Part shown: positions 1,410-59,557 of the stretch, piece after piece
How positions within the stretch are numbered: position 1 is the first letter of the stretch
Layout of the letters: each line of letters starts with the position of its first letter
Assembly (NCBI GenBank): GCA_035221665.1
Contig: CM069161.1
Coordinates: 12,524,001 to 12,588,000 of the forward strand
Source of the DNA: Okamejei kenojei
Taxonomy: Eukaryota
DNA: 64,000 nt
Direction of reading: 5' to 3'
Program-made: the position numbers and the translations under genes
The notes under the pieces: generated by a model
Database searches by the model: none
What the model saw: only the letters and a program-made list of their open reading frames with translations
What the model was told of the DNA's origin: nothing

Positions 1410-1872
1410 CTTAGTTTGATTTAGTTGAGTGTGGTGTAGGTGTACCGAGGTGCACATTGAAAAGCATTTTTGTTGCGTGCTGTCTAGTCAGCGAAAAGAC
1501 CATACATGATTACAATCAAGCGGTCTACAGTGAACAGAAGATAGTCACTAAAAGCTGGAGGAACTAAGCGGGGATGGCAGCATCTCTAGAGAGAAGGAAT
1601 GGGTGACGCTTCTTAAGTAGGATCTCGACCCGAAACCCCCTCCTTCTCACCAGAGATGCTGCTTGCCCAGCTGAGTTACTCCAGCTTTTAGTGTCTATCT
1701 ACGGTTTAAAGAACCATCTTCTGCAGTTGCTTCTAACACACAGTCTACAGGCAACGGATAAAGGGAATAATGTTGAGTGAAAGGTAAAGGCCAGTAAAGT
1801 CAGATTATAGACAGTCTGATGGCCTCTAAAGAGGTAGATATTAGGTCAGGACCGATCTCAAGTTGGTAATAA
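1410..1872 (-). mobile_element. Rex/Babar-like LINE 3' tail split by a Penelope fold-back cassette (about 1537-1740)
   Basis: tgtaccgaggtgcac...aaagaccatacatgattacaatc resumes after 1740 and is colinear with the copies at 20860 and 31620. Confidence 0.65.
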
Positions 1873-5325: not shown

Positions 5326-5445
5326 CACGTGGAAAATCGAGGGTACACAAGGGTCTGAAGAAGGGTTTCGGCCCGAAACGTTGCCTATCTCCTTCGCTCC
5401 ATAGATGCTGCTGCACCCTCTGAGTTTCTCCAGCATTTTGTGTAC
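5326..5445 (+). mobile_element. Penelope-derived cassette, subfamily 2, with intact hammerhead-like core (5355-5382)
   Basis: ctgaagaagggtttcggcccgaaacgtt, flanked by the direct repeat cctgggaataaa. Confidence 0.8.
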
Positions 5446-6204
5446 CCTGGGAATAAATGCTCTTGTGTACGCGGGCCGGAGGGCGGGCATACTGCTTTCA
5501 CTCAGAACCAATTGATTCGTTGTTCCTTAAATATGAGACCGACGAAATAAAAAAAATAACATCTAGTTCATTTACTATTAAAATATAAATATTCACTTAC
5601 ATTGAAACAAAAAGTATAGCAACAAAATATTAGCATTTGGTTAAAATCACTCACGTCTTCCAACTAAAATATAATACTATTGTTTCGCATTATTGCAACA
5701 TGTTTCCAGCATTTTTCTGTCTTTATTTCACATCCGTTGACTTGAATGGCAACATTTAGCGACTCGGATTAAGGAATACTGGCATGTCTGAAAAACCTAT
5801 CAAGAGATATAACTTAGAACCATTTTGTGAAGGAAGATAACAAAATTTGCCCTTTATTTTAGCTGTAGATTTACCGGATGTTGAAGACGAATATCGGTAT
5901 GAAATTTGAAACCCAAAAACGCCATGTGCAAAAAACACGAGCCTCTCGTACATCGATTTCAATTATTGACCTTCAAATCCGACTGCGAGAACGTGGGAAT
6001 AGAAGTTCTAGAAGTTTGGAAATCGTGTTGGAATCGGGGGCTCGAGTTTACAAATTGCATCGGAACAGAGGGTCGTTTGGTTCGCTGCAAATGCGGGCAT
6101 TCAATAGTATCAGATGTTGAGGCAAAACGTGCCCATTTGCTACGCATCTGGTCAAGTTCTACTTTATCCCCACTTGTAATAGTTTAAAAGTTACGGAGTA
6201 CACT

Positions 6205-7179: not shown

Positions 7180-7375
7180 ACACGAACTGCTGAAGTACCT
7201 CACCGGGTCAGGCGTCATCTCAGGGAAAATGGGTAGGTAAGGTTTCCGGTCGAAGAAAGGTCCCGACCCGAAATATCGAGGCTGAAGAAAGGCCCAGACC
7301 CGAAACGTTATCTATCCATGTTCTCCAGAGATGCAACCTGACCCGCGAAGTTACTCCAGCACTTTGTGTCTTTTT
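7180..7375. mobile_element. Penelope-derived fold-back cassette with two tandem hammerhead-like cores
   Basis: Inverted arms surround gaagaaaggtcccgacccgaaatatc and ctgaagaaaggcccagacccgaaacgtt. Confidence 0.7.
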
Positions 7376-8179: not shown

Positions 8180-8722
8180 CAAAAGAGCTGGTCCTTGTTG
8201 CGAATGGGGAGAGAGGGAGCAAGAGCGGAGCTGCTGGGTATCGAGAAGACCTTAGTGAGAGCCTTATCTCTAACGGAAGAGGAGAACCCCCGTTTCCGAA
8301 AGAATGAGGACATCTCCGATGCTCTAGTATGGAAAACCTCTTCCTGGGCGCAGATGCAGCGTAGAGGGAGGAATTGTGAGCAGGGGATAGAGTCTTTACA
8401 TGAAGCGTGGTGGGAAGAAGTGTAGTCTAGATAGCTATGGGAGTCAGTAGGTCTGCAGTAGATGTCGTTCAATAGTAGTCTGTCTCCTGTGATGGAGACG
8501 ATGAGATCCTGAAACGGTTGGGAGATGTTGGAGATGGTCCAAGTGAGTTTGAGTGCAGGATGGAAATTAGTGGTGAAGATGATGAAGTCAGTGAGTTCTG
8601 CATGGGTGCAGGGGGGCAGCACCGATGCAGTCTTCAACGTAGCGGAGGTCGAGTTCGGGGATAGGGCCAGTGTACGCCTGGAACAGTGATTGTTCGACGT
8701 ACCCTACAAAGAGGCAGTCATA
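8180..8722 (-). mobile_element. Penelope-like element RT fragment (frameshifted)
   Basis: CLFVGYVEQSLFQAYTGPIPELDLRYVEDCIGAA (degenerate YxDD), then FTTNFHPALKLTWTIS...IYCRPTDSHSYLDYTSSH...SIPCSQFLPLRCIC, typical of PLE RT palm/thumb. Confidence 0.88.
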
Positions 8723-8904
8723 CCCTACAAAGCTATAAACATGAACCTGTTTACAGTGAGCTAATCAACGGGTTGAAACTCTGCCATTTGCTATCGCCCT
8801 CTCTTATTTCCGGCATTTAGGGTCTAACTTTTATTTGTAGTTTGTAGTTAAAAAAAAACCAATTAATAATTTTTGCATCATCTTAAATTGCACAATCAAA
8901 TTAA

Positions 8905-9342: not shown

Positions 9343-9411
9343 AAAGCCAATCGGGAGCTTTCAGTGAGAACAGGTCGATAGTTGGCATTCTAAAGAAACT
9401 GAACGGCGTCA

Positions 9412-9606
9412 GGTAGACACAAAATGCTAGAGTAAATCAGAGGGTGGGGCAGCATGGTTGGAGAGAAGGAATGGACGACGTTTCCTATCGAGAACCCTTT
9501 TCAGATCATCCCTTCTTTCCAGAGATGCTGCCTCACCCGCTGAGTTACTCCTGCATTTTGTGTCTACCTTCGATTTAAACCAGCATCTGCAGTTCTGTCT
9601 TACACA
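9412..9606. mobile_element. Penelope-derived fold-back cassette
   Basis: ggtagacacaaaatgc ... gcattttgtgtctacc form inverted arms. Confidence 0.8.
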
Positions 9607-12679: not shown

Positions 12680-12850
12680 TGAAGATAGACACAAAATGCT
12701 GGAGTAACTCAGCGGAAAGGGCAGCATCATTTGGCAGAAGGAATGGGTGAAGTTTCGGGTCGAAGAAGGTGCTGCCTGTCCCGCTGAGTTACTCCAGCAT
12801 TTTGTGCCTATCTTTGGTTTAAACCAGCATCTGCAGTTCATTCGTACACA
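12680..12850. mobile_element. Penelope-derived fold-back cassette
   Basis: cacaaaatgctggagtaactcagcgg / ccgctgagttactccagcattttgtg are perfect inverted arms. Confidence 0.8.
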
Positions 12851-13500: not shown

Positions 13501-14234
13501 TGTATACCACTGCCACAGTAACTACATTTAACACGTATTATTTTGAGCATGATTAAAAATTAAAATTTGGGGAATACTCAGCGTGGCAGGCAGTAGTTGT
13601 GGAGCGGCGCGATACAGTTAACGTTTCAGATCGGTGATCTGCTGGGAACTCCCAGCATTTACTGTTTTCATTTCGGATTCTTAGCATCCATAGATTTTAT
13701 ATTTTAATTGGCGCGAATCGCTTTGCGACACCCTATGAAATGAAGTCAGCATCTAAATTGAAGTTCTTTCTTTGTTTGCCAACTTAAATTTATCTTTGGA
13801 AGCTGCTGTTAAAATCGTTTCTGCAACGTTTTCATAAAGTGCATTCTCGATTATACCAATTAATTTGCTATAAAATATTCTTACCATCTCTTGTTACTTT
13901 ATCAAATACCATAACCTTTCTGATTATGGGTTTAGCACTGTCAACTGGACAGTAAAACAGTGGAAAACATTGATTTGCCCGTTATTCACACAGATCATGC
14001 CATAAATGCCATTTTATTACTGATCCATCTACAAGTGGGAAAATTTGGCTCTTGTATTGAATATCTCACGGAATCTCATACATCTCTCGTTTCTCCTCAT
14101 AATTGTGCGTCTGCCGATTGCTATTTATTCTCAAATATATATTCTATCCCTTCTTCAAATCCAGGTATCCCACAAAATCAAATATCCATCTATATCTCCA
14201 AATGCATCCATATTCTCTGTTCTTGCCATTGTTT

Positions 14235-14387
14235 TTTATCTCTCTACATCGTCGTCTATATCCCTCGTTTTCCTTTTCCGGTGACTTTAGTCTGAAGAAG
14301 GGTCTCGACCCGAAACGTCACCCATTCCTTTTCTCCAGAGATGTTGCCTGTCCCGCTGAGTTACTCCAGCTTTTTGTGTCTATCTCT
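14235..14387 (+). mobile_element. Penelope-derived cassette with intact hammerhead-like core (14292-14319)
   Basis: ctgaagaagggtctcgacccgaaacgtcacc preceded by the pyrimidine-rich pLTR segment. Confidence 0.8.
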
Positions 14388-18135: not shown

Positions 18136-18719
18136 CAACGTTCCATTTAGTTCTTGAATGAACGTCTGTCAAGAAGGTTTGGAAAGATATAGAACGGCCT
18201 TTGTTCAGGTTCATCCCAAACAGCTGCATAACAGACTGAGTCACATATGCTCTTGAAAGGTTATCATCTCGACGAAATATGCAAACTGGTCTGCTTGCAA
18301 CTGTCTAGCCCTTCAGTCCGTGACCCACGGCCGTATATAAGACATTCCATTCTCCAGGGCTATATGCTAAGAGTGAATCTTGGCACACTTCCGGCAAATG
18401 ATCAATGGAAAAACATGTAACTCACGTGGCAGAATTTCGTTTTTCGAAATGTTTGGTTACGAAATTTATGTTAAGGAACATAAAAACCGATAATGATCGA
18501 AACACTCATCAGGTACAGGAGAAAAATAATAGTTGACGTTGAAGGGTAATAGCATTTCCTCGGAACTGGAGGATTAAATCTCCATACCATTGAAGGGATC
18601 TACAGGAAGCGCTGCCTCAAAAAAGTCATCGAAGCCCACATCCCCGAGCTGCTCTGGATACTAACCCGCGCGCCCTCTGCTGTCCATAAAGCGACATTAA
18701 CTATTAACTATTAACTATT

Positions 18720-19237
18720 AACCAACCTGATCTCTCAATTGCCGGACACCTGCATTCACCTTCCCATTCCTACACAGACCTTTCAGTCCCCGGTCCCCCC
18801 CTTCTCCCCCCACCCCCCATTGGCAGAGTGAGGCTGAACGCAAATTGGACGAACAGCATCTCATATTTCGCTTAGGCAGCTTGCAGCACAGTAGTATGAA
18901 TATTGATGTATCTCACTTCAGGTAGCCCCGGCATCCCCTCTCTCCCTCGCCCTCCCCCACCCAAGTCGCATTAGCTTTTCATTTTCACCGTACAGACAAC
19001 TTACAAACTGTTTCCGTTCTAATCGTTCCTTTTTTGCATATCTTTCATTCATTGTTCGTTATCTCTCCACATCACCCCCTCGTTTCCCTTATCCCTAACC
19101 AGTTTGAAGAAGGGTCTCGATCTGAAACGTCACCCTTTCCTTCTCACCAGAGATGCTGCCTGTCCCACTGAGTTACTGCTCCAGCTGTTTGTGTCTATCT
19201 TCGGTTACAACCTGCATCTCCAGTTTCTCCTTATACA
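18720..19237 (+). mobile_element. Penelope-like element 3' end: GIY-YIG endonuclease C-terminus plus terminal repeat
   Basis: 18824-18925 reads QSEAERKLDEQHLIFRLGSLQHSSMNIDVSHFR*, matching the PLE endonuclease terminus (R.L.E...I..L.T..P.GMN), and runs into the cassette at about 19104. Confidence 0.85.
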
Positions 19238-19259
19238 TCAACTATTACTTTATGACTTT

Positions 19260-19929: not shown

Positions 19930-20027
19930 ACAGTCTGAAGAAGGGGTTCGACCCGAAACGTTGCCTATTTGCTTCGCTCCATAGATGCTGCCTCACCAGC
20001 TGAGTTTCTCCAGCATTTCTGTCTACC
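19930..20027 (+). mobile_element. Penelope-derived cassette, subfamily 2
   Basis: ctgaagaaggggttcgacccgaaacgttgcctat...gagtttctccagcatt. Confidence 0.75.
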
Positions 20028-21120: not shown

Positions 21121-21393
21121 TCTTGTCTCGCTTAACATTGAAAAAAATGTGGCTTGTAAATACGATTTTAGTATGTCAAGGTCTTCACCTCCCGGGTTCA
21201 AGATTTCTGCAGTGGATGCAATGATAGACCTCACCAGGTCTAGATTAAAAGCAACGCGTGGAAATTATCTTGATTTTGCAGCGTAAACCATATTGAATGT
21301 GTAAATGAACCCAAAGGGCGAGCGCCTTGGTCTAGTCATACATAATAATAAAATTATCTGTTCTCACATACCTATTTCTTATGGAATTATTAT

Positions 21394-21489
21394 CTGAAGA
21401 AGGGTTTTGGCCCGAAACGTTGCCTATTTCCTTCGCTCCATAGATGCTGCTGCACCCGCTGAGTTTCTCCAGCATTTTTGTCTACCTTC
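21394..21489 (+). mobile_element. Penelope-derived cassette, subfamily 2
   Basis: ctgaagaagggttttggcccgaaacgtt, flanked by the direct repeat ctgttctcac. Confidence 0.78.
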
Positions 21490-22573
21490 CTGTTCTCACC
21501 ACGACAAGTTCCCTGACAAATTTTCGACGTCTCTGAATAACAATGACATTTCAGTTGATATCTTTACTCTGTAGAAAATTAACTTGCATTTTCAGGGACG
21601 TCTGTGAATGTTAAAGAGGTGGTGAATTCGCAGAAGACCATCAAGCCTCAAAACAAGGAGACACAAGGAACTGTAGATGTTGGAACATGGAGCAAAATGA
21701 AGCGTGCTGGGGGAACTCAGCGGGTCAGGCAGCGTCTGTGGAAGAAATGAGCAGACCGTTTCCGGTCGAGGCACGTCTTCAGACAAAACATATTAGATGG
21801 GCGAAATCTAATCTTTGAACTGCGGTAAAGGAAATATTAACTCCTTCTAACATCGTAACTCAATGTCCCTGATTGAACGAGACACCAATTCCACGCACTT
21901 CAAAGCAGACGGCGCCACTTAAAAAAAAATACAGCCTTCACTCGATCCCATCTCCTGGTCATTTCAAGTGCGATGACTTATCATAGCTGTGAAATGACGA
22001 ATATTCCACTTCATTCATGATAAACATTCCACGTTGAACAATTCCGAAAATATTTTCTCCACGTTGTGACGCCCGTAGAAGGAAGAATAAATGAAGATGT
22101 GATCAAATGTAATATTTAGTTGAAGATCACGTTTACGTGTGGAGACTGAAGCTGCTCGTATGTGTGCCAGGGATGGGGTAAAAAAACAAACAAACTACTA
22201 AACAGAACAAAACCTTTGAAATTAATCCCTCTCATTTCAGTAGCTATTTAGTATCTACACTCTAGCAGATCATTACGATTATTTATCTCTCGTTAAATAG
22301 AGATGTAGTTGCAAATGCCTGATTCATATTTTTCCAAAAAATAAGGATGACGGAGTATCATCTGGTATTCATTACCTTGGTTATTTCTATCATATATTAA
22401 GAGCTTACACACACACACATTAAATACCACTTAATACACCCTCTACCTCTATTTAATCTCATATTACGTTATAACGTTTGACGTTATCAGAATGTAATAT
22501 CTACAGCAGGATTTGTCTGCAGAGTGCCAGGATATCCGAGGACTTTATCCTGCGCCAATAAACATAGTTTCTT

Positions 22574-22965
22574 GGGTACACAAAAGGCTGGAGAAACTCA
22601 GCGGAAGGGGAGGTTCCTCCCCTTCCCACCTCTCCCTCAGCCCACGGGCTCTGACATTCCCTCTCTCTCCATCTCTCTCCCCCACCCTAGTCGCACTAGC
22701 TTCTCATTTTCACACTACAAACAGCTTACAATGGCTTGTTCCCTTTATCATCGATAGTTTTTTGCATACCTTTCATTCATTGTTCTTTATCTCTCCACAT
22801 CACCGTCTATATCTCCCGTTTCCCTGATCCCTGACCAGTCTGAAGAAGGGTCTCGACCCGAAACGTCGCCTATCTCCTTCGCTCCTTAGATGCTGCTGCA
22901 CCCGCTGAGTTTCTCCAGCCTTTTGTGTACCCTCGATTCTCCAGCATCTGCAGTTCCTTCTTTAA
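22574..22965 (+). mobile_element. Long Penelope terminal repeat with inverted 5' piece; intact hammerhead-like core at 22840-22867
   Basis: Colinear with 18930-19237. The 5' gggtacacaaaaggctggagaaactcagcgg is the reverse complement of 22903-22932. Confidence 0.85.
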
Positions 22966-25900
22966 AACATAGTATCTTGGTGTCTTCATCATACCACCGG
23001 CACATACTTTACAGCCCCTGTAAATCTATTGTGGTGCCTAATACTGCAAACCTGCTGACCCCGGAGAGCAAAAAAAAAACCAAAACACCTATTTCCCCCG
23101 AGTTCAACAAAGCATCTGGCTCATTTCTTATGGAATTATTATCCAACCTGGACCTACGAGGTTTTACACATTCCCTTCAAAACTACGTGAAAGTATTATG
23201 AAACTGCCAAATAAATAGTATTTTGACACAAAATGCTGGCATAACTCAGCGAGACAGGCAACATCTCTGGGGAGAAGGAATGGGTGACGCTTTGGGTCGA
23301 GTCCTTTCTTTTGCCATTTCACTGTTTAACTATACCAATTTTAAACCATTTTCAAAAATCCCTCTTCAATAAAATTAGCTCGTTCTTTCTCCAGCGGAGT
23401 AGGCCCCAGCCGAATCATTTAAATTGCATCATGGCCATTTTACTTTATCTCCTTTAACCCTCTTTTTTTCTAAACCCCAGAAACATGTATCCATGAAACA
23501 TACCCAAGTGTCGTTCATGCTAACTTTATTTGGCCATCACCTTGCCCATCTTCCCCACCACTCATCATTCACAGCCTTTGGAGGCGATGGGGATTTGCGA
23601 TCGGTCGAGGGCAGAGTTCCATCTTTAAAAAGATACCCTTTACGCATAAACGTTTCCTAAATTCATTTCAACAGGCATTGCTTTAATTTTAATATTGTCT
23701 AGAATTCCCTACCAGCACGGTCAGTACATTCACCGATTAAAAAAAAATCATTTTAATATAGATTCGGTAGCGTATCTCTAACTGCTACGTGTAAAGGAAT
23801 GTTTACAAATAATTGAAGATGATGCATTGTTAAAATTTTGGGGCAATATTTCTGGATTCCTGTCTGCTTTATGGTCCAACTATTTTGCACGTTATTTGTC
23901 CTTCACTCTCTAACGTTTGTGGAAGCAACTGTTGGTTTCCACCAATTTGGTAGCCTAAATTATAGAAACTAAGAGCAAAATAGAAAACTATCCGCAAATG
24001 CTGTTAAGTCGTTTATTTCATTAACAACAATCATGGAACCTCGAAGTAATTCATCATACTTTGTGTGAATTCCACATGGTACCAACATCAACCTAAGAAT
24101 ATTGTTTTGGAACTCTTGTTGACATGGAGATACAACCTTTCTATCACAATGGGATATTATGATCCTAATTATCAAGGTCGATCGGGTTGCGGAAATTCGC
24201 GCTGACAAACTTCACAAATCGCTACCAAAAAACATGAGCTCATGCCAAATTATCACCATGGAATGCATATTAATTAGTAAATAAATCAACTCTGTTTAAA
24301 AACAAAAAGTTTCTTGATGCGCGCAATTTTGCATAACGGAAAGTTGTGATATTGCCTGATTTTTCTTGGAGCGCATCCCCTCGTAAGGTCGGGGTCGCCT
24401 GCATTAATATTATATTAAGGTAATATCAGGTGAGTCTCGACATAACGTATTAATTTCTAATTCTCTGGACCACGTATGTACTCACACCTCGCGAGTGCAC
24501 AATAGTTCGACCATACCACTAATGCAAGATAACCTTCCTCTGTAGTTACACGGCACAAATATCGTGTTAGAATTGTAACTCCTTCCACTTGCCAAATGGT
24601 TTTGAGATGAACTGTTGTATGAAAAAGAATGTTCACAAAGAAAGGAAGGTAATGCGTGGATTTCTTCCTTGTCTGCTTAATGATCAAACTATTTTGTACG
24701 TTAGTTAGTTTATTCTCTAAGGTTTCCGCCAGATTGTCAGTCAGTACCTTTTTATATCAATAATAGTGGATGCATTCCTCGGCCATGTCTTTTCCTGTGT
24801 GTGACGGTCCCTGTATCTGAATATATCTGCCTGTAAGCAGCGATACGGAATGTTGTGTTTATTGTAGAATGTATTAATTAATTGTAGTTGAAGGCCCCTT
24901 ACACATTTTTAGATAGTATAACTATGCATGGACGCAAACATTGCTCATATCTACACGAGGACGAGAGTAGGGGCAAGGGTAGAGTAAATATCAGATAATA
25001 ATGAGCTATTGCGACAGTAGAATTTCACTCCGTAAGTCGGGTGGAAGTTCGCAATTTGTCTATACTTACTCTGTAGTTCAAGTACGGAAATAACGTAGGA
25101 ACCTCTTAAGATGTAAAGTGAGACTTCTGCGACCAATGAAGGGTGGGATCTCGAAACCCCAGGGCCGAGCGAGTTAATATTATGCGCCTACACTGCTTGA
25201 GTGCTGATGCCTATCGCGTCTTAATGCGATTACAAGTTCATCTCTTCACCCAGCGAAATGACCAGCGAAATGATCGGCTCTTTTGTAGTATATTGGCTCT
25301 GGAGCGTAAACTCGCAGACGGTAAGCAATTTAGCCACCGCACTCTCTCCGGCCTTTTTGTGTCCGCGATGACAAGTGCGGCAATGAACTTTTCGTCTGAC
25401 TTCAAAGCTGCGGCTATTTCACACCAAATACTATTTATTCAGTCCGTTGTTACCATACTCATTACAGCGGTACGGCGGTTCTTTGCACGATTTCTCCTCA
25501 ATCTTACCTTTCTCCATTTCAGAATTTTAATAAGCGACTTTGCTTTCACCTAATCATTACTTTTTAATTGACTTCCCCATTTCTAACTGCTTGCAACGTG
25601 GACCTTAGGTATTCACCTTGACCTGTCGTTGAAACATATCAAGCAGAATGCCTTTACAATTACAATTAAAAAGAATGCAGTTTGTCTTCTTTATTCACAA
25701 TGTTTGATATTTTTGCCGTTGTAAATTGCCAACTTTGTTTTTTTGCACTTGACTTTAAAATATCAAGGGTTGGTGCACTATTTAACTTTCTGCTGTTTCG
25801 ATTGAGTTGCCGGTCTCGCTCTTATTCATTGTAGAATTAGATTGATCTGATTTCCATGCTACAAGGAACAAAGTCGACCAGTCCGCAGTTGGAGCAGCAG

Positions 25901-28711: not shown

Positions 28712-28907
28712 GGCAAAATGCTGGCGTAACTCAGCGGGACAGGCAGCAGCTCTGGAGAGAAGACATGGGCGACGTTTTGGGTCGAGACCCTTCTTCAGAA
28801 ACGTCACCCATTCCTTCTCTCCAGAGACACTGCCTGTCTCGCTGAGTTACGCCAGCATGCTGTGTCTATCTTCGATTTAAACCAGCATCTGCAGTTCTTT
28901 CCTACAC
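28712..28907. mobile_element. Penelope-derived fold-back cassette
   Basis: atgctggcgtaactcagcg / cgctgagttacgccagcat are inverted arms; flanking duplication cattttgttg. Confidence 0.8.
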
Positions 28908-29618
28908 ATTTTGTTGTTGTTTTTGGCTCATATTTCTTGAATACTAAGGCTCCTGCCACACTTTGTACTGACACCTCTTACTTTAAATTTACGTGTGCTT
29001 TTAGTCCGTGTGTGTTGGCGACGCAGCTTTCTCTGCGTTAGTGAAATGGCGCTTTGTTCTCAAAGAAAGAGACATGTATGAACTGACCTCTTCGGACAAA
29101 TCCGGGCCATAGAATTGATTTCTTACTCCAGTTTCCAGCACTTTAAACTTTCACAGGAATAAACATCCGCTCCAGAAGGTGCGACCGGTACGTTCCATGG
29201 GGGACTGCGTCCAGGGAATAAAGTTTAATTCTGGTCCTGTTTCAAGGTTAGAGACAGCGGGAGAGAAAACAAGTGGGCGACAAAAATAACAACAGAAGTT
29301 CAGTCATTTGAGGCCAGTCGTCGCGGTCATAAAGAGCTAAAGCGCCGGCGGGGGCAACCAAATTCCTACAAGGCATTTCTTTTCAATCAATCCAAACAGT
29401 TGAAACACTCGGATACTTGCGCAAGGAGACATGTCAGACATGTTATCCGTTGCCAGTTTAAACTTTGAAAACTCCATGACAAACATCCGTGATCAATTAA
29501 TTGACCGGTTTGTTTTCACGGAGACATGGGGTTTTTTTTTTGCATTTAGAGTTTTATTCAAATCTAGCCGAGTAACGAAAGGGAACTATCGGTGGAGAAA
29601 TATGAAGAGACGTGGAGT

Positions 29619-31517: not shown

Positions 31518-31800
31518 CGGTATACAAAAGGCTGGAGAAACTCGGCGGGTGCAGCAGCATCTAAGGAGCGAAGGAGCTAGGCGACGTTTCGGGTCGAGAC
31601 CCTTCTTCAGACTGATCTTTGTTTAGCTTTAGTTTAGTTTAGTGTTGTCACGTGTAACGAGGTACAGTGAAAGGGTTTTCTGTTACATGCTATCTAGTCC
31701 GCGAAAAGACTACACATGCTTTAAAATCAAGCCGCCCACAGTGTACAGACACAGGATACATGATATAGCGTTTAGTACAAAATAGCGCCCAGTGCAAGTC
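31518..31800 (-). mobile_element. Penelope cassette (intact core 31583-31610) next to a Rex/Babar-like tail (31620-31800)
   Basis: gacgtttcgggtcgagacccttcttcag, then tttagtttagtgttgtcacgtgtaacgaggtacagtgaa. Confidence 0.75.
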
Positions 31801-34489: not shown

Positions 34490-34765
34490 TATGTGTAGGA
34501 AGGAACTGCAGATGCTGGTTTAAACCGAAGATAAACACAAAAAGCTGGAGTAACTCAGCGGGACAGGCAGCATCTCTGGCGAAAAGGAACAGGTGACGTT
34601 TCGGGTCGAGACTCTTCTTCAGACTGAGAGTCAGGGGAGAGGGAAACGAGAGATATAGACGGTGATGTAAAGCGATAAATAAAACAAATAAATGAATGGT
34701 ATGCAGAAAAGTCACGATGATAAAGGAAACATGTAATTGTTAGCTGTGGCCTAGGTGAGAACGCC
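34490..34765 (-). mobile_element. Penelope terminal repeat, core 34595-34622
   Basis: Reverse-complement homologue of 22700-22965 and 14235-14387. Confidence 0.82.
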
Positions 34766-36817: not shown

Positions 36818-36915
36818 GTCTGAAGAAGGGTCTCGACCCGAAACGTCGCCTATTTCCTTCGCTCCACAGATGCTGCTTTATCCGCTGAGTTTCTCCAGCA
36901 AATTGGTCTTTACCT
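36818..36915 (+). mobile_element. Penelope-derived cassette, intact core 36820-36847
   Basis: ctgaagaagggtctcgacccgaaacgtcgcc, with tattaaca duplicated on both sides. Confidence 0.78.
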
Positions 36916-54000: not shown

Positions 54001-55611
54001 GGATGGACTTTTTGTAAGAGTTTTTGAATTCTCAGCAAGGTCACGGTCAACCATTAACCGTTTGCATTTAGGTTATGCAGCATTCAGATTGTTCCGGATT
54101 GAAAGCTTTCGGGAAAAGAAGAACCATATTGCATATTCTGCGCTATTTGAGGAACTGTCGACGTTTTAAAACATTTAATCATTTTTTCTAGGACATTAAC
54201 TTACAGCAAGAGTATATGCAAACATGGCGTATTTCCTACGTCCTATAATGTTTATTTCTGTATTTCACAATCAAGATTGTACTCTCTGACCTATGAAATT
54301 GCCATTGGTTTTTCGTTATCCTCTCAGCCCTTTGTAATGGCCCTCTCTTAGAACTATCTGAACTTATACTGTTGACAGGATTTCGTTATTACATTTATTA
54401 TTCACCGTAGATAACAAACTTTTACTACACAGATGGTGGAAAACATGGAAATGTCCTGTGTCTACAATTTGCCAATTGTCACCGTAATGTATCGCATAGC
54501 AATATAACGCAACGGCGGCAGATGCATTTAATAGTGCGAATTAGCTCAAGCAACACGATAGGCAGAGATAATTCGCTTTTTTTTAAATAATGCATGACTT
54601 TATTTTTTATCATTGTGCGTTTCATCAACGTACTGTGAACAACTTAGTGAATGGCAAAATATTGCACAACTTTTTTGCATCACAACTAATAAAATAAATA
54701 TGGAAGTTTTAACTAGTGAAAGAAAAATAAAATGTTTTCCAAGTAGCCTGATGCGTCGGTGGAAAAGAATGTGTGTCCATGTTTTAATTTCTGTCTCTCC
54801 CGCTGCTAGAGGGTTATTTTCTCTCCCTTAACGCGAAAATCTCATCAAAATACATTATGGGCCTTAAAGGTTGCTTTGTAAGGTGAGAACTCACTTTTAA
54901 AAGGATACAGCAGCTTTGCATTTTGCAAGTTGGTATGTGTTTAATAGACTTTAGCGTGATATCTGCAGGATATAAACCTCTTGATCTTAAACTTGTAAAG
55001 CAGGGTGTTTATACCGTTAATTAAATTTTATTTCCTGCGAATACCAAATTCTATCCGTTGCGGAGTAAGCATGACGACGTTCACAGTGCAGCTATTAAGG
55101 TTTCAAGTATATTTACAGTCAAGGCAGAAGGTTCTGGCAATAGGCATAGGGCACAGCGAAGTGAGCTTTGGTTTTGATATATCCCTTTCCAGTTCATTCA
55201 GTTCCATTGATTCACAGTCTAACCGGAAATCCCATGTTCGATGCAGTATGCATTCGAAATAACATTTTCATTTGAACTTAAATCGGCACTGGCCGTGTTT
55301 ATTCATCTATGAGCAATTCCCTTACTTAGGTGCGATTGGAATATATTTTGTTGATCGCATATTTATACTACAGCAATGCAGTACAATGGCCGCGAGATAT
55401 CACAATCGTCTTTAGCACTCAATGATGGGGATTGAGAAAATGTTAAGGGTCCATATCCGCCCAGTAAACAGAGAGCTGAAATTCTGACTCATTCCCCGTT
55501 CCCTACTCAGAAAGTTCGTTGAAACTCCTGGGCATTACACTGTTGGCGGTAAAATAGGGAAAGCCGTTAATTCTTCAGGTCGTTTGACAATTTGTTTTTC
55601 CCGATTGACAG

Positions 55612-55883
55612 AAAGCGCGAAGACCGCGAGTGCGACAAACTGGATGACTGCGAAGGGAGGAAGAAAGAAGCGTTGTCCGTACACCAAGTACCAGACTCTG
55701 GAGCTGGAGAAGGAGTTTCTCTTTAACATGTACTTGACTCGAGAGCGCCGCCTGGAGATCAGTCGGAGCGTGAATCTAACCGACAGGCAGGTCAAAATCT
55801 GGTTTCAAAACAGGAGAATGAAGCTGAAAAAGATGAGCCGAGAGCACAGGATTCGAGAAATATCAACTGCTTTCCCCATCTGA
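55612..55883 (+). CDS. hoxb10: Hox paralogue group 10 homeobox protein (probably HoxB10), exon 2 with homeodomain (55659-55838)
   Basis: Acceptor tttgtttttcccgattgacAG (55610-55611) keeps the frame with exon 1 (712+272=984 nt, 327 aa plus stop). Encodes [69 protein letters not shown], a diagnostic Abd-B class PG10 homeodomain. The B-cluster assignment is inferred from context. Confidence 0.96.
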
Positions 55884-59473: not shown

Positions 59474-59557
59474 AACTGTTGAGTGACTTAGGTAGTTTCA
59501 TGTTGTTGGGCTTCTGCTTGATCCCAGTGACAAGAAACTGCCTGAATTACCCCAGTT
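59474..59557 (+). ncRNA. mir196: miR-196 precursor hairpin; mature 5p at 59489-59510
   Basis: TAGGTAGTTTCATGTTGTTGGG matches mature miR-196a-5p exactly. Complementary 3p arm CAGTGACAAGAAACTGCCTGAA (59525-59546), basal stem aactg/cagtt, CNNC (catc, 59563-59566) about 17 nt downstream. Canonical position between Hox10 and Hox9. Confidence 0.97.

What the first reader, a model, noticed from the sequence alone, without database searches (positions are those of the whole stretch)
22840..22867. High-copy minimal hammerhead-ribozyme-like motif carried by a short Penelope-derived element
Seen: CTGAAGA-A-GGGT[ctcg]ACCC-GAAA-CG-TC recurs intact at 5355, 14292, 19935, 21394, 22840, 36820 and 45397 (+) and at 31583-31610 and 34595-34622 (-), with many more degenerate copies. 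Among these copies, differences fall mostly in the hairpin loop (ctcg/ttcg/cccg/ttgg) or keep pairing (T-A to T-G), while CTGAAGA and GAAAC are kept. Established: CUGANGA/stem II/GAAA/UH is the hammerhead core, and Penelope-like elements carry minimal type I hammerheads with a tiny palindromic stem III (here ACGT) thought to need dimerisation. Inference: this is an abundant non-autonomous, ribozyme-bearing retroelement family (retrozyme/SINE-like) in a cartilaginous fish, sitting inside a Hox cluster. Caveat: predicted stem I is only about 2 bp, so single copies may be inactive.
Basis: partly seen in the sequence, partly recalled or inferred. Interest (0 to 1): 0.8.

Follow-up and report, generated by a model that had tools for sequence, protein, structure and literature searches.

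The report
Hammerhead-tipped Penelope retrotransposon fragments
The repeat is the hammerhead-ribozyme-like end piece of a very abundant Penelope-like retrotransposon, present in over 50,000 identical copies in this genome; about half of the young copies are only about 95-130 bases long and were likely copied from the capped, uncut start of the element's own RNA, which would show where this RNA begins and that the ribozyme likely does not cut the RNA that gets inserted.

Summary
The motif is real: 15 window hits against 0 in shuffles, and 51,198 exact copies genome-wide. It is a minimal type I hammerhead core, with a 4-bp stem II, a palindromic ACGT stem III and a 2-bp stem I. It is not a separate retrozyme or SINE. 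It lies in the pseudo-LTR of a Neptune-type Penelope-like element (RT + GIY-YIG). The copy at 22840 is a 5'-truncated copy with an inverted end, a tail and a TSD. About half of the young copies start within a few bases of the core. They do not pile up at the predicted cleavage site (103 vs 152 control, ratio as expected). In duplicated 5' ends, the base before A(-3) is G in 28 of 29 informative cases, as a copied mRNA cap would give. Best reading: a capped transcript starts 3 nt upstream of the core, and RT runs from its internal start to the cap, inserting uncleaved RNA. This fits the Anolis PAc in vitro result. Activity is untested, and core-over-flank conservation is only suggestive (p=0.07). 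The copies sit in the repeat-rich Hox13-Hox10 gap and are absent from the cluster core.

The parts
22560..22575 (+). Left target-site duplication of the focal insertion (15 of 16 bases equal to 22965-22980; 9-bp exact core)
   Evidence: exact core; extension read by eye
22574..22604 (-). Inverted 31-bp copy of the pLTR 3' end (100% identical to 22902-22932), typical Penelope 5' inversion
22615..22836 (+). 3' UTR of the Penelope-like ORF (subfamily B); in long copies it follows the GIY-YIG stop codon
   Evidence: 95% to L025
22837..22837 (+). A(-3): inferred main capped transcription start, inside an initiator-like CCAGTC/TCAGTC (Inr consensus recalled)
   Evidence: inference from insertion junctions; no RNA-end data
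22840..22867 (+). Minimal type I hammerhead core: CUGAAGA, extra A, 4-bp stem II, GAAA, palindromic ACGU, GUC; predicted cut after 22867; stem I 2 bp (22838-22839 with 22868-22869)
   Evidence: geometry as in PMC4209133
22868..22932 (+). Rest of the pLTR, ending at the first common 3' end (about +92)
22933..22964 (+). Optional ~32-bp 'tail' ending at the second common 3' end (about +125); predicted to pair with AGAUGCUG in the pLTR
22965..22980 (+). Right target-site duplication
18711..19239 (+). Subfamily A copy: GIY-YIG ORF fragment (18711-18919, 59-62% aa to L017), 3'UTR, motif at 19104, tail
8185..8725 (-). Penelope RT/thumb ORF fragment (67-70% aa to L017)
5353..5447 (+). Short subfamily B copy starting at -2
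14227..14385 (+). Subfamily A copy with some 3'UTR
19931..20018 (+). Short copy starting about -4; stem II broken
21393..21478 (+). Short copy starting at -1
31521..31617 (-). Short subfamily B copy
34491..34747 (-). Subfamily A copy with 3'UTR and tail; stem II broken
36818..36899 (+). Short copy starting at -2
45396..45485 (+). Short copy starting at -1; stem II broken

Best explanation
The motif is the minimal hammerhead of the pseudo-LTR of a Neptune-type Penelope-like retrotransposon, and its many short copies are likely run-off reverse transcripts of the element's own capped RNA, which is inferred to start 3 nt upstream of the core and to be inserted uncleaved. Shown: the motif sits in both repeats of a pLTR-ORF-pLTR element with RT and GIY-YIG motifs; copies end at two fixed 3' points; about half of young copies begin at -4..+7; some carry their own TSDs; there is no excess of starts at the cut site; duplicated 5' ends carry an extra G before A(-3). 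Inferred: an internal Pol II promoter with Inr at (T/C)CAGT; the element's protein starts RT at +92 or +125 (as PAc does) and reaches the cap after 95-130 nt, so short inserts outnumber RT-bearing pieces about 60:1; cleavage, if any, would need a dimer or protein help and would not be a step in making inserts.
For: Element anatomy: L035 has a partial 5' pLTR and a 3' pLTR 93.9% alike, around an ORF from an ATG 162 nt after the core to a GIY-YIG end. It has DKG, YIDD, LIYCIRC and YIGET motifs and a C-x4-C-x2-C linker. Pfam gives RVT_1 E 1.2e-5 and GIY-YIG E 5.9e-4, both under the curated cut-offs. 5' truncation ladder across 39 loci. 3' ends cluster at about +89..+95 and +122..+131, matching the two RT starts and tail of PAc (PMC11167929). 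5' starts: 21 of 35 subfamily-B copies in 799 kb of unselected DNA lie at -4..+7 (17 of 35 if four with another subfamily's UTR are set aside), none between -5 and -165; 41 of 59 at -8..+7 and 1 of 59 at -39..-9 in a larger, partly selected set. Cleavage site: 103 starts vs 152 at a control site, expected ratio 0.70, seen 0.68. Cap signature: among the first 100 of 389 tandem junctions, G 28, A 1, T 0 before A(-3), counted by eye (binomial p 3e-15); the same junction with an extra G occurs in another organism's run. An extra G marks the cap at L1 full-length 5' junctions (PMC11702581, one passage). PAc HHR mutants insert normally (PMC11167929).
Against: No raw reads were offered, so no RNA 5' end was seen. 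At plain (non-tandem) -3 starts the G excess is weak: 38 of 100 vs about 27 expected, p 0.011; among 7 TSD-defined -3 starts with extra bases only 2 end in G. 5' starts spread over about 10 nt rather than one base. Only 15 of 66 non-inverted, non-tandem short copies gave a TSD of 10 bp or more. Part of the apparent pile-up in older copies comes from other subfamilies with different upstream UTRs. No intact full-length ORF was found. Two of the 28 G cases could be templated, and some junctions are not independent (L240/L241). A hard RT stop at a structure is not excluded.
Confidence: 0.65

Rival explanations
1. The short copies are a true non-autonomous family (SINE- or retrozyme-like): short inserts are themselves transcribed from the internal promoter and remobilised by the Penelope protein.
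For: Short inserts contain the inferred start site and both RT start sites; they greatly outnumber ORF pieces (321 pLTR hits vs 5 RT loci in 799 kb); pLTR depth far exceeds ORF depth in runs guessed to be RNA. Retrozymes are proposed to derive from pLTRs (10.64898/2026.07.22.740005).
Against: Short and long copies share the same subfamily sequence. No tandem units cut at the ribozyme: 389 tandem junctions against more than 51,000 copies, with only 8-11 of 100 at the cut site. No tRNA in the window. PAc needs ORF-start RNA for protein binding (PMC11167929), which short inserts lack. Lineage separation was not tested by a tree.
Confidence: 0.15
2. The 5' pile-up is an RT stall or truncation hotspot at the hammerhead/stem II structure in long read-through RNA; the extra G is terminal-transferase activity, not a cap.
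For: Starts spread from -7 to +7; weak G excess at plain junctions; R2 RT adds non-templated G and T (PMC13000458, passage); 12,533 of 30,035 B motifs do extend to -11 exactly.
Against: RT moving 3' to 5' would stall on the 3' side of stem II (+19), not 3 nt beyond the core; near-empty zone from -9 to -39; the G excess is tied to A(-3) in 28 of 29 junctions; inverted pairs join at the same point.
Confidence: 0.15
3. The hammerhead is active in vivo and cleaves the RNA as a normal step (dimer processing, circles), and inserts derive from processed RNA.
For: Core boxes show no subfamily-level change (0 of 10 positions vs 16 of 59 flank positions); subfamily differences keep pairing (U-A to U-G in stems I and II) and keep NUH; PAc HHR cleaves with protein (PMC11167929).
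Against: No excess of inserts starting at +28; inserts keep the intact core; stem I is 2 bp; the monomer MFE (-9.5) beats the hammerhead-like fold (-4.2 kcal/mol) and the cofold does not pick the ACGU dimer. This leaves cleavage as a side or regulatory event open.
Confidence: 0.05

Closest known systems
Minimal hammerheads (min-HHR) of metazoan Penelope-like elements (Cervera and De la Pena 2014, PMC4209133)
   Same: Type I core with no loop III, palindromic 15.2-16.2, extra nucleotide between 9 and 10.1, G10.1-C11.1 pair, location in pLTRs, mostly single dispersed motifs from truncated elements; the D. virilis variant also has a 2-bp helix I.
   Different: Copy number: 51,198 identical copies and about 100,000 descriptor-positive motifs by extrapolation, against about 4,000 (coelacanth) and 9,000 (Xenopus) there; low sequence variability; no cartilaginous fish in the parts I read; the motif is within 3 nt of the inferred RNA 5' end.
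Neptune-clade EN+ Penelope-like elements (Craig et al. 2021, PMC8557442)
   Same: Single ORF RT + C-terminal GIY-YIG, CX2-5CxxC linker, DKG motif, partial-tandem pLTR, inverted 5' copies, 30-40 bp tail.
   Different: Neptune vs Nematis was not separated by a tree; about half of the copies are a near-fixed short form rather than randomly truncated.
Poseidon_Ac (PAc) of Anolis (Frangieh et al. 2024, PMC11167929)
   Same: Two RT start sites defining the tail; HHR near the pLTR-ORF junction; uncleaved RNA is the insertion substrate.
   Different: PAc is Penelope/Poseidon clade, with the ATG inside the HHR and RT starts inside the ORF; here the ATG is 162 nt downstream of the core and RT starts lie before it. 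The evidence here is genomic, not biochemical.
Metazoan non-LTR retrozymes (PMC7229834; bioRxiv 10.64898/2026.07.22.740005)
   Same: Short, non-coding, type I HHR-bearing, related to pLTRs.
   Different: Those are 150-450 bp tandem repeats, largely with canonical HHRs, that make circRNAs; these are dispersed monomers or inverted pairs with a minimal core whose ends are not set by the cut site.

Membership tests
EN+ Penelope-like element (Neptune/Nematis type) | ORF with PLE reverse transcriptase and C-terminal GIY-YIG endonuclease | tested here: met
   (Pfam hits under cut-off; DKG, YIDD, LIYCIRC/YIGET motifs); all copies seen are broken or truncated
EN+ Penelope-like element (Neptune/Nematis type) | pLTRs in partial tandem, inverted 5' copies, 30-40 bp tail | tested here: met
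EN+ Penelope-like element (Neptune/Nematis type) | CX2-5CxxC linker between RT and EN | tested here: met
   C-x4-C-x2-C read in L010; last C changed in L017; feature from PMC8557442
EN+ Penelope-like element (Neptune/Nematis type) | RT phylogeny within the Neptune clade | not testable with these tools
   no Repbase/Dfam or reference PLE proteins on hand
Minimal type I hammerhead (PLE type) | CUGANGA, GAAA and NUH boxes with paired stem II and palindromic stem III | tested here: met
   30 descriptor hits in 799 kb vs 0, 0, 1 in three shuffles
Minimal type I hammerhead (PLE type) | Helix I long enough to close the junction (4-5 bp in S. mansoni, 2 bp in D. virilis) | tested here: inconclusive
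   2 bp in 18 of 30 hits; position -3/+30 is A-C in 82 of 118
Minimal type I hammerhead (PLE type) | Core better conserved than flanks, with covariation | tested here: inconclusive
   0.068 vs 0.134, Mann-Whitney p 0.074; 0 of 10 vs 16 of 59, Fisher p 0.10; only one-sided U-G changes, no compensatory pairs
Minimal type I hammerhead (PLE type) | Self-cleavage | not testable with these tools
   needs an in vitro assay; genomic proxy shows no excess of ends at the site
Rfam hammerhead families | Match to a curated covariance model | tested here: not met
   0 of 13 matches at E<=1
Non-LTR retrozyme | Tandem repeat units each bounded by an HHR | tested here: not met
   389 close tandem junctions vs 51,198 copies, with variable junctions; only gaps up to 20 nt were searched, plus 30 more for one junction type
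Non-LTR retrozyme | Circular RNA intermediates | not testable with these tools
   only contigs were offered
SINE (Pol III) | tRNA/5S/7SL-derived head with Pol III promoter | tested here: not met
   no tRNA in the window, no such Rfam match; the 5' end is pLTR sequence

The most novel reading that the evidence does not exclude
This genome holds on the order of a million 'strong-stop'-like Penelope inserts (about 5% of the DNA). They map, in vivo, a capped start 3 nt before the hammerhead and show that uncut RNA is the substrate. In addition, the RT re-copies the first 30-37 nt after reading the cap, with landings confined to +26..+35. That would be a genomic footprint of short capped RNAs, or of a hammerhead-organised RNA pair held in the Penelope particle, and would point to a structural rather than cutting role for the motif.
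Probability: 0.3. Interest if true: 0.75.

Novelty: new variant of a known kind. Interest (0 to 1): 0.5.

Why it matters
The role of hammerheads in Penelope-like elements is stated to be unclear (PMC8557442), and the only mechanistic data I found are in vitro on one lizard element. A family with tens of thousands of near-identical young insertions is a natural record of the RNA template's ends. It argues that inserts come from capped, uncleaved RNA, predicts a start site to the base, and gives a simple route from an autonomous PLE to SINE-like copy numbers without a separate non-autonomous family. It may also be among the most abundant hammerhead-like motifs in a vertebrate genome. The ribozyme-in-pLTR arrangement itself is known.

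Tried and rejected
Rfam scan: no hammerhead match. Cleavage footprint in DNA: no excess of 5' ends at +28 and no peak of junction 3' ends at +27. A 3' splice site at CAG|TCTG as the cause of the 5' boundary: rejected because short copies share no upstream exon (flat base counts upstream of -6) and AG is kept in many starts. A longer stem III or stem I using the downstream GUC...CUGAG of subfamily A: considered by eye and rejected, as subfamily B lacks that GUC. Folding gave no support for a stable hammerhead fold (z -1.84 to +0.86). RNA evidence: only contigs of runs mostly guessed to be RNA were offered, so expression, strand and ends are not shown; runs X10, X12 and X13 held one contig each and were uninformative. 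Cross-species core conservation could not be read. Our earlier findings: two look-ups gave nothing. Literature searches for Penelope hammerheads or short cap-ended copies in sharks, skates or rays listed no such description. Repbase, Dfam and subscription journals were not searchable; Lunse et al. 2017 was not held; the supplements of the 2026 bioRxiv preprint (which sampled one chondrichthyan) were not opened and may list this family.

Full report
Numbering. Position 0 is the C of CTGAAGA (window 22840); the predicted cut lies between +27 and +28.

1. Observation. The motif is at all nine named places. The window has 15 matches at up to 2 mismatches against 0 in 100 shuffles, 21 at up to 4, and 40 merged BLAST pieces of the surrounding element. 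Six of the nine named copies keep all of stem II; three break a pair. Two downstream sequence types exist, A (GTCACC...) and B (GTYGCC...). Rfam gives no hammerhead at E<=1. My own minimal descriptor finds 30 hits in 799 kb of G000 stretches taken at round-number positions, against 0, 0 and 1 in three shuffles; by eye all belong to this element group. The exact 27-mer occurs 51,198 times in G000, control 0. Extrapolation gives about 100,000 descriptor-positive motifs and, from 321 BLAST hits in 799 kb (arms of inversions counted apart), about a million pieces; 5.4% of the first 399.5 kb was covered.

2. What carries it. The best genomic matches to the focal copy extend upstream into a GIY-YIG-coding frame. 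Of 39 loci fetched for that frame, shared sequence reaches back by very different lengths, up to about 2.4 kb. One, L035, has a partial 5' pLTR and a 3' pLTR (93.9% alike, motif in both) around an ORF of about 3.6 kb that starts 162 nt after the core and is broken in this copy (self-repeats were examined in 16 of the 39). L017 and L040 hold open pieces of 553 and 595 aa; Pfam gives GIY-YIG (E 5.9e-4) and RVT_1 (E 1.2e-5), both under the curated cut-offs, and nothing for three L035 pieces. DKG, YIDD, LIYCIRC, YIGET and a C-x4-C-x2-C linker are present; the linker marks Neptune/Nematis in PMC8557442 (passages). The window itself has an RT fragment (8185-8725) and a type A copy joined to a GIY-YIG fragment (18711-19239). 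The focal copy reads: TSD, inverted 31-bp pLTR end, 3'UTR, pLTR with the motif, 32-bp tail, TSD. This is the standard anatomy of a truncated PLE (PMC8557442; PMC8969392, passages). No intact full-length ORF was found.

3. The short form. 3' ends cluster near +89..+95 and +122..+131, as the two RT start sites of PAc predict (PMC11167929, parts 1-2 of 4 read). For 5' ends I used type B copies anchored on their 3' part. In unselected DNA, 21 of 35 start at -4..+7, 3 are long and 11 start at +20..+48; four of the 21 look like an older subfamily with another UTR, leaving 17. In a stricter, larger set (59 copies; 30 of its loci were centred on copies chosen for +5..+37, which thins the inner bins) 41 start at -8..+7, 1 at -39..-9 and 8 further up. 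Genome-wide, 30,035 B motifs match +5..+37 exactly and 12,533 match -11..+37. Of 99 short young copies, 31 have an inversion and 2 a tandem piece at the 5' side; 15 of the other 66 gave a direct repeat of 10 bp or more, mostly 11-18 bp (this set includes loci chosen for a -3 start). In older copies part of the pile-up is an artefact of subfamilies with different upstream UTRs.

4. No footprint of cleavage. Copies starting at +28 number 103 against 152 at a control site (+33); the degenerate letters alone predict a ratio of 0.70 and 0.68 is seen; both lists include some internal indels and small arrays. Copies with a non-C before A(-3) number 7,329 (types A and B, including some mutated long copies), and 981 start at -5 under a stricter pattern.

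5. A cap-like G. 389 loci have two motifs within 20 nt. In the 100 listed, counted by eye, the base before A(-3), when not the templated C, is G 28 times, A once, T never (p 3e-15 against 27%); two could be templated and not all are independent. Twenty such loci that I picked for having G show that the upstream piece also starts near the same 5' point (about -5..+2), so the layout is [start..+27-35] G [-3..end]. Landings: 4 at +26, 8 at +27, 8 at +28, 2 at +29, 59 at +30..+34, 19 further (including a six-unit array). About 22 of the 100 are type B G-junctions at up to +36, i.e. roughly 85 genome-wide, against 3 at +37..+67; landings below +26 were not searched. Contigs of run X5 (another organism label) show the same joints, +30 and +33 back to -3 with a G between. 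An extra G marks the cap at full-length L1 5' junctions (PMC11702581, one passage). Against: at plain -3 starts G is only 38 of the first 100 (A 37, T 25; p 0.011), and 2 of 7 in TSD-defined cases. D. virilis Penelope has an internal promoter with an Inr (PMC2377424, passages); the match of TCAGTC to the Inr consensus is recalled.

6. Is it a ribozyme? It meets the min-HHR geometry of PMC4209133 (parts 1-2 of 4 read), which reports no cleavage of a monomer, low cleavage of dimers, and a 2-bp helix I in D. virilis. Here stem I is 2 bp in 18 of 30 hits, and an RNA starting at -3 has only three bases to offer. Among 118 copies (of 163 spanning rows, of 321 hits), non-CpG core positions vary 6.8% and 3' flank positions 13.4% (p 0.074); 0 of 10 core vs 16 of 59 flank positions show subfamily-level change (p 0.10); the common changes in the motif are in the loop, U-A to U-G, and C17 to U. 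CpG decay hits G12 and 16.2. Folding does not favour the active fold. PAc's HHR cleaves only with protein and is not needed for insertion. So membership by sequence is good, activity is untested.

7. Hox context. Homeodomains lie at -17.5 kb (Hox13-like), 55.5 kb (Hox10-like, in the window), then 66, 77, 81, 89, 93, 108, 138 and 149 kb; paralogue names and the HoxB assignment are from my recall of the sequences. Element hits run at 5-11 per 10 kb from -10 to 49 kb (genome sample about 4 per 10 kb) and 0 from 49 to 110 kb. The copies fill the repeat-tolerant gap and are excluded from the core; nothing here points to a Hox-related role.

8. Comparison and verdict. It works like, and by anatomy is, an EN+ PLE of Neptune type with a minimal hammerhead. 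It fails the tandem-unit test for non-LTR retrozymes (PMC7229834, passages; bioRxiv 2026.07.22.740005, parts 1-3 of 5) and has no Pol III head. Other papers seen only as passages: PMC6155905, PMC6765202, PMC13000458. Nine searches listed no account of this family or of cap-ended short PLE copies, but Repbase, Dfam and most subscription papers were out of reach, so the family may well be catalogued. Known arrangement, exceptional abundance, and a testable inference on the RNA's start and on uncleaved templates: interest 0.5.

Noticed in passing
window 49844-50698 and 55548-55880 (+): Two exons of a Hox10-paralogue gene (likely HoxB10, name from recall); a Hox13-like homeodomain lies 17.5 kb upstream of the window.
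   Followed up: partly
window 59480-59553 (+): mir-196 precursor, 71 bits, above the Rfam gathering score.
   Followed up: no
G000 C3:86332035-86332346: A small tandem array of 44-bp units that each hold the hammerhead core; a possible nascent retrozyme-like minisatellite. L048 has an ~800-bp tandem unit with three motifs.
   Followed up: no
L230-L249; window 7250-7306: Duplication of the first 30-37 nt of the element at the 5' junction, landings confined to about +26..+35; cause unexplained (paused short capped RNAs, re-copying of a retained RNA end, or dimer geometry). The window has an old example at 7250-7306.
   Followed up: partly
window 1532-1732, 9411-9595, 12682-12842, 28714-28909, 43416-43570: Head-to-head inverted pairs of the short element; they look like MITEs or hairpins and gave spurious miRNA-family Rfam hits.
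   Followed up: partly
window 22888-22950: The tail is predicted to pair with AGAUGCUG in the pLTR in both subfamilies (8-9 bp), a candidate RT-start hairpin.
   Followed up: partly
L035 (G000 C5:55571250-55578999, - strand): The ORF has a long Pro/Thr/Ser-rich stretch between the N-terminal domain and the RT.
   Followed up: no
runs X10, X12, X13: Each holds a single near-identical contig of the element while X5 holds thousands; likely carry-over from another organism's nucleic acid.
   Followed up: no
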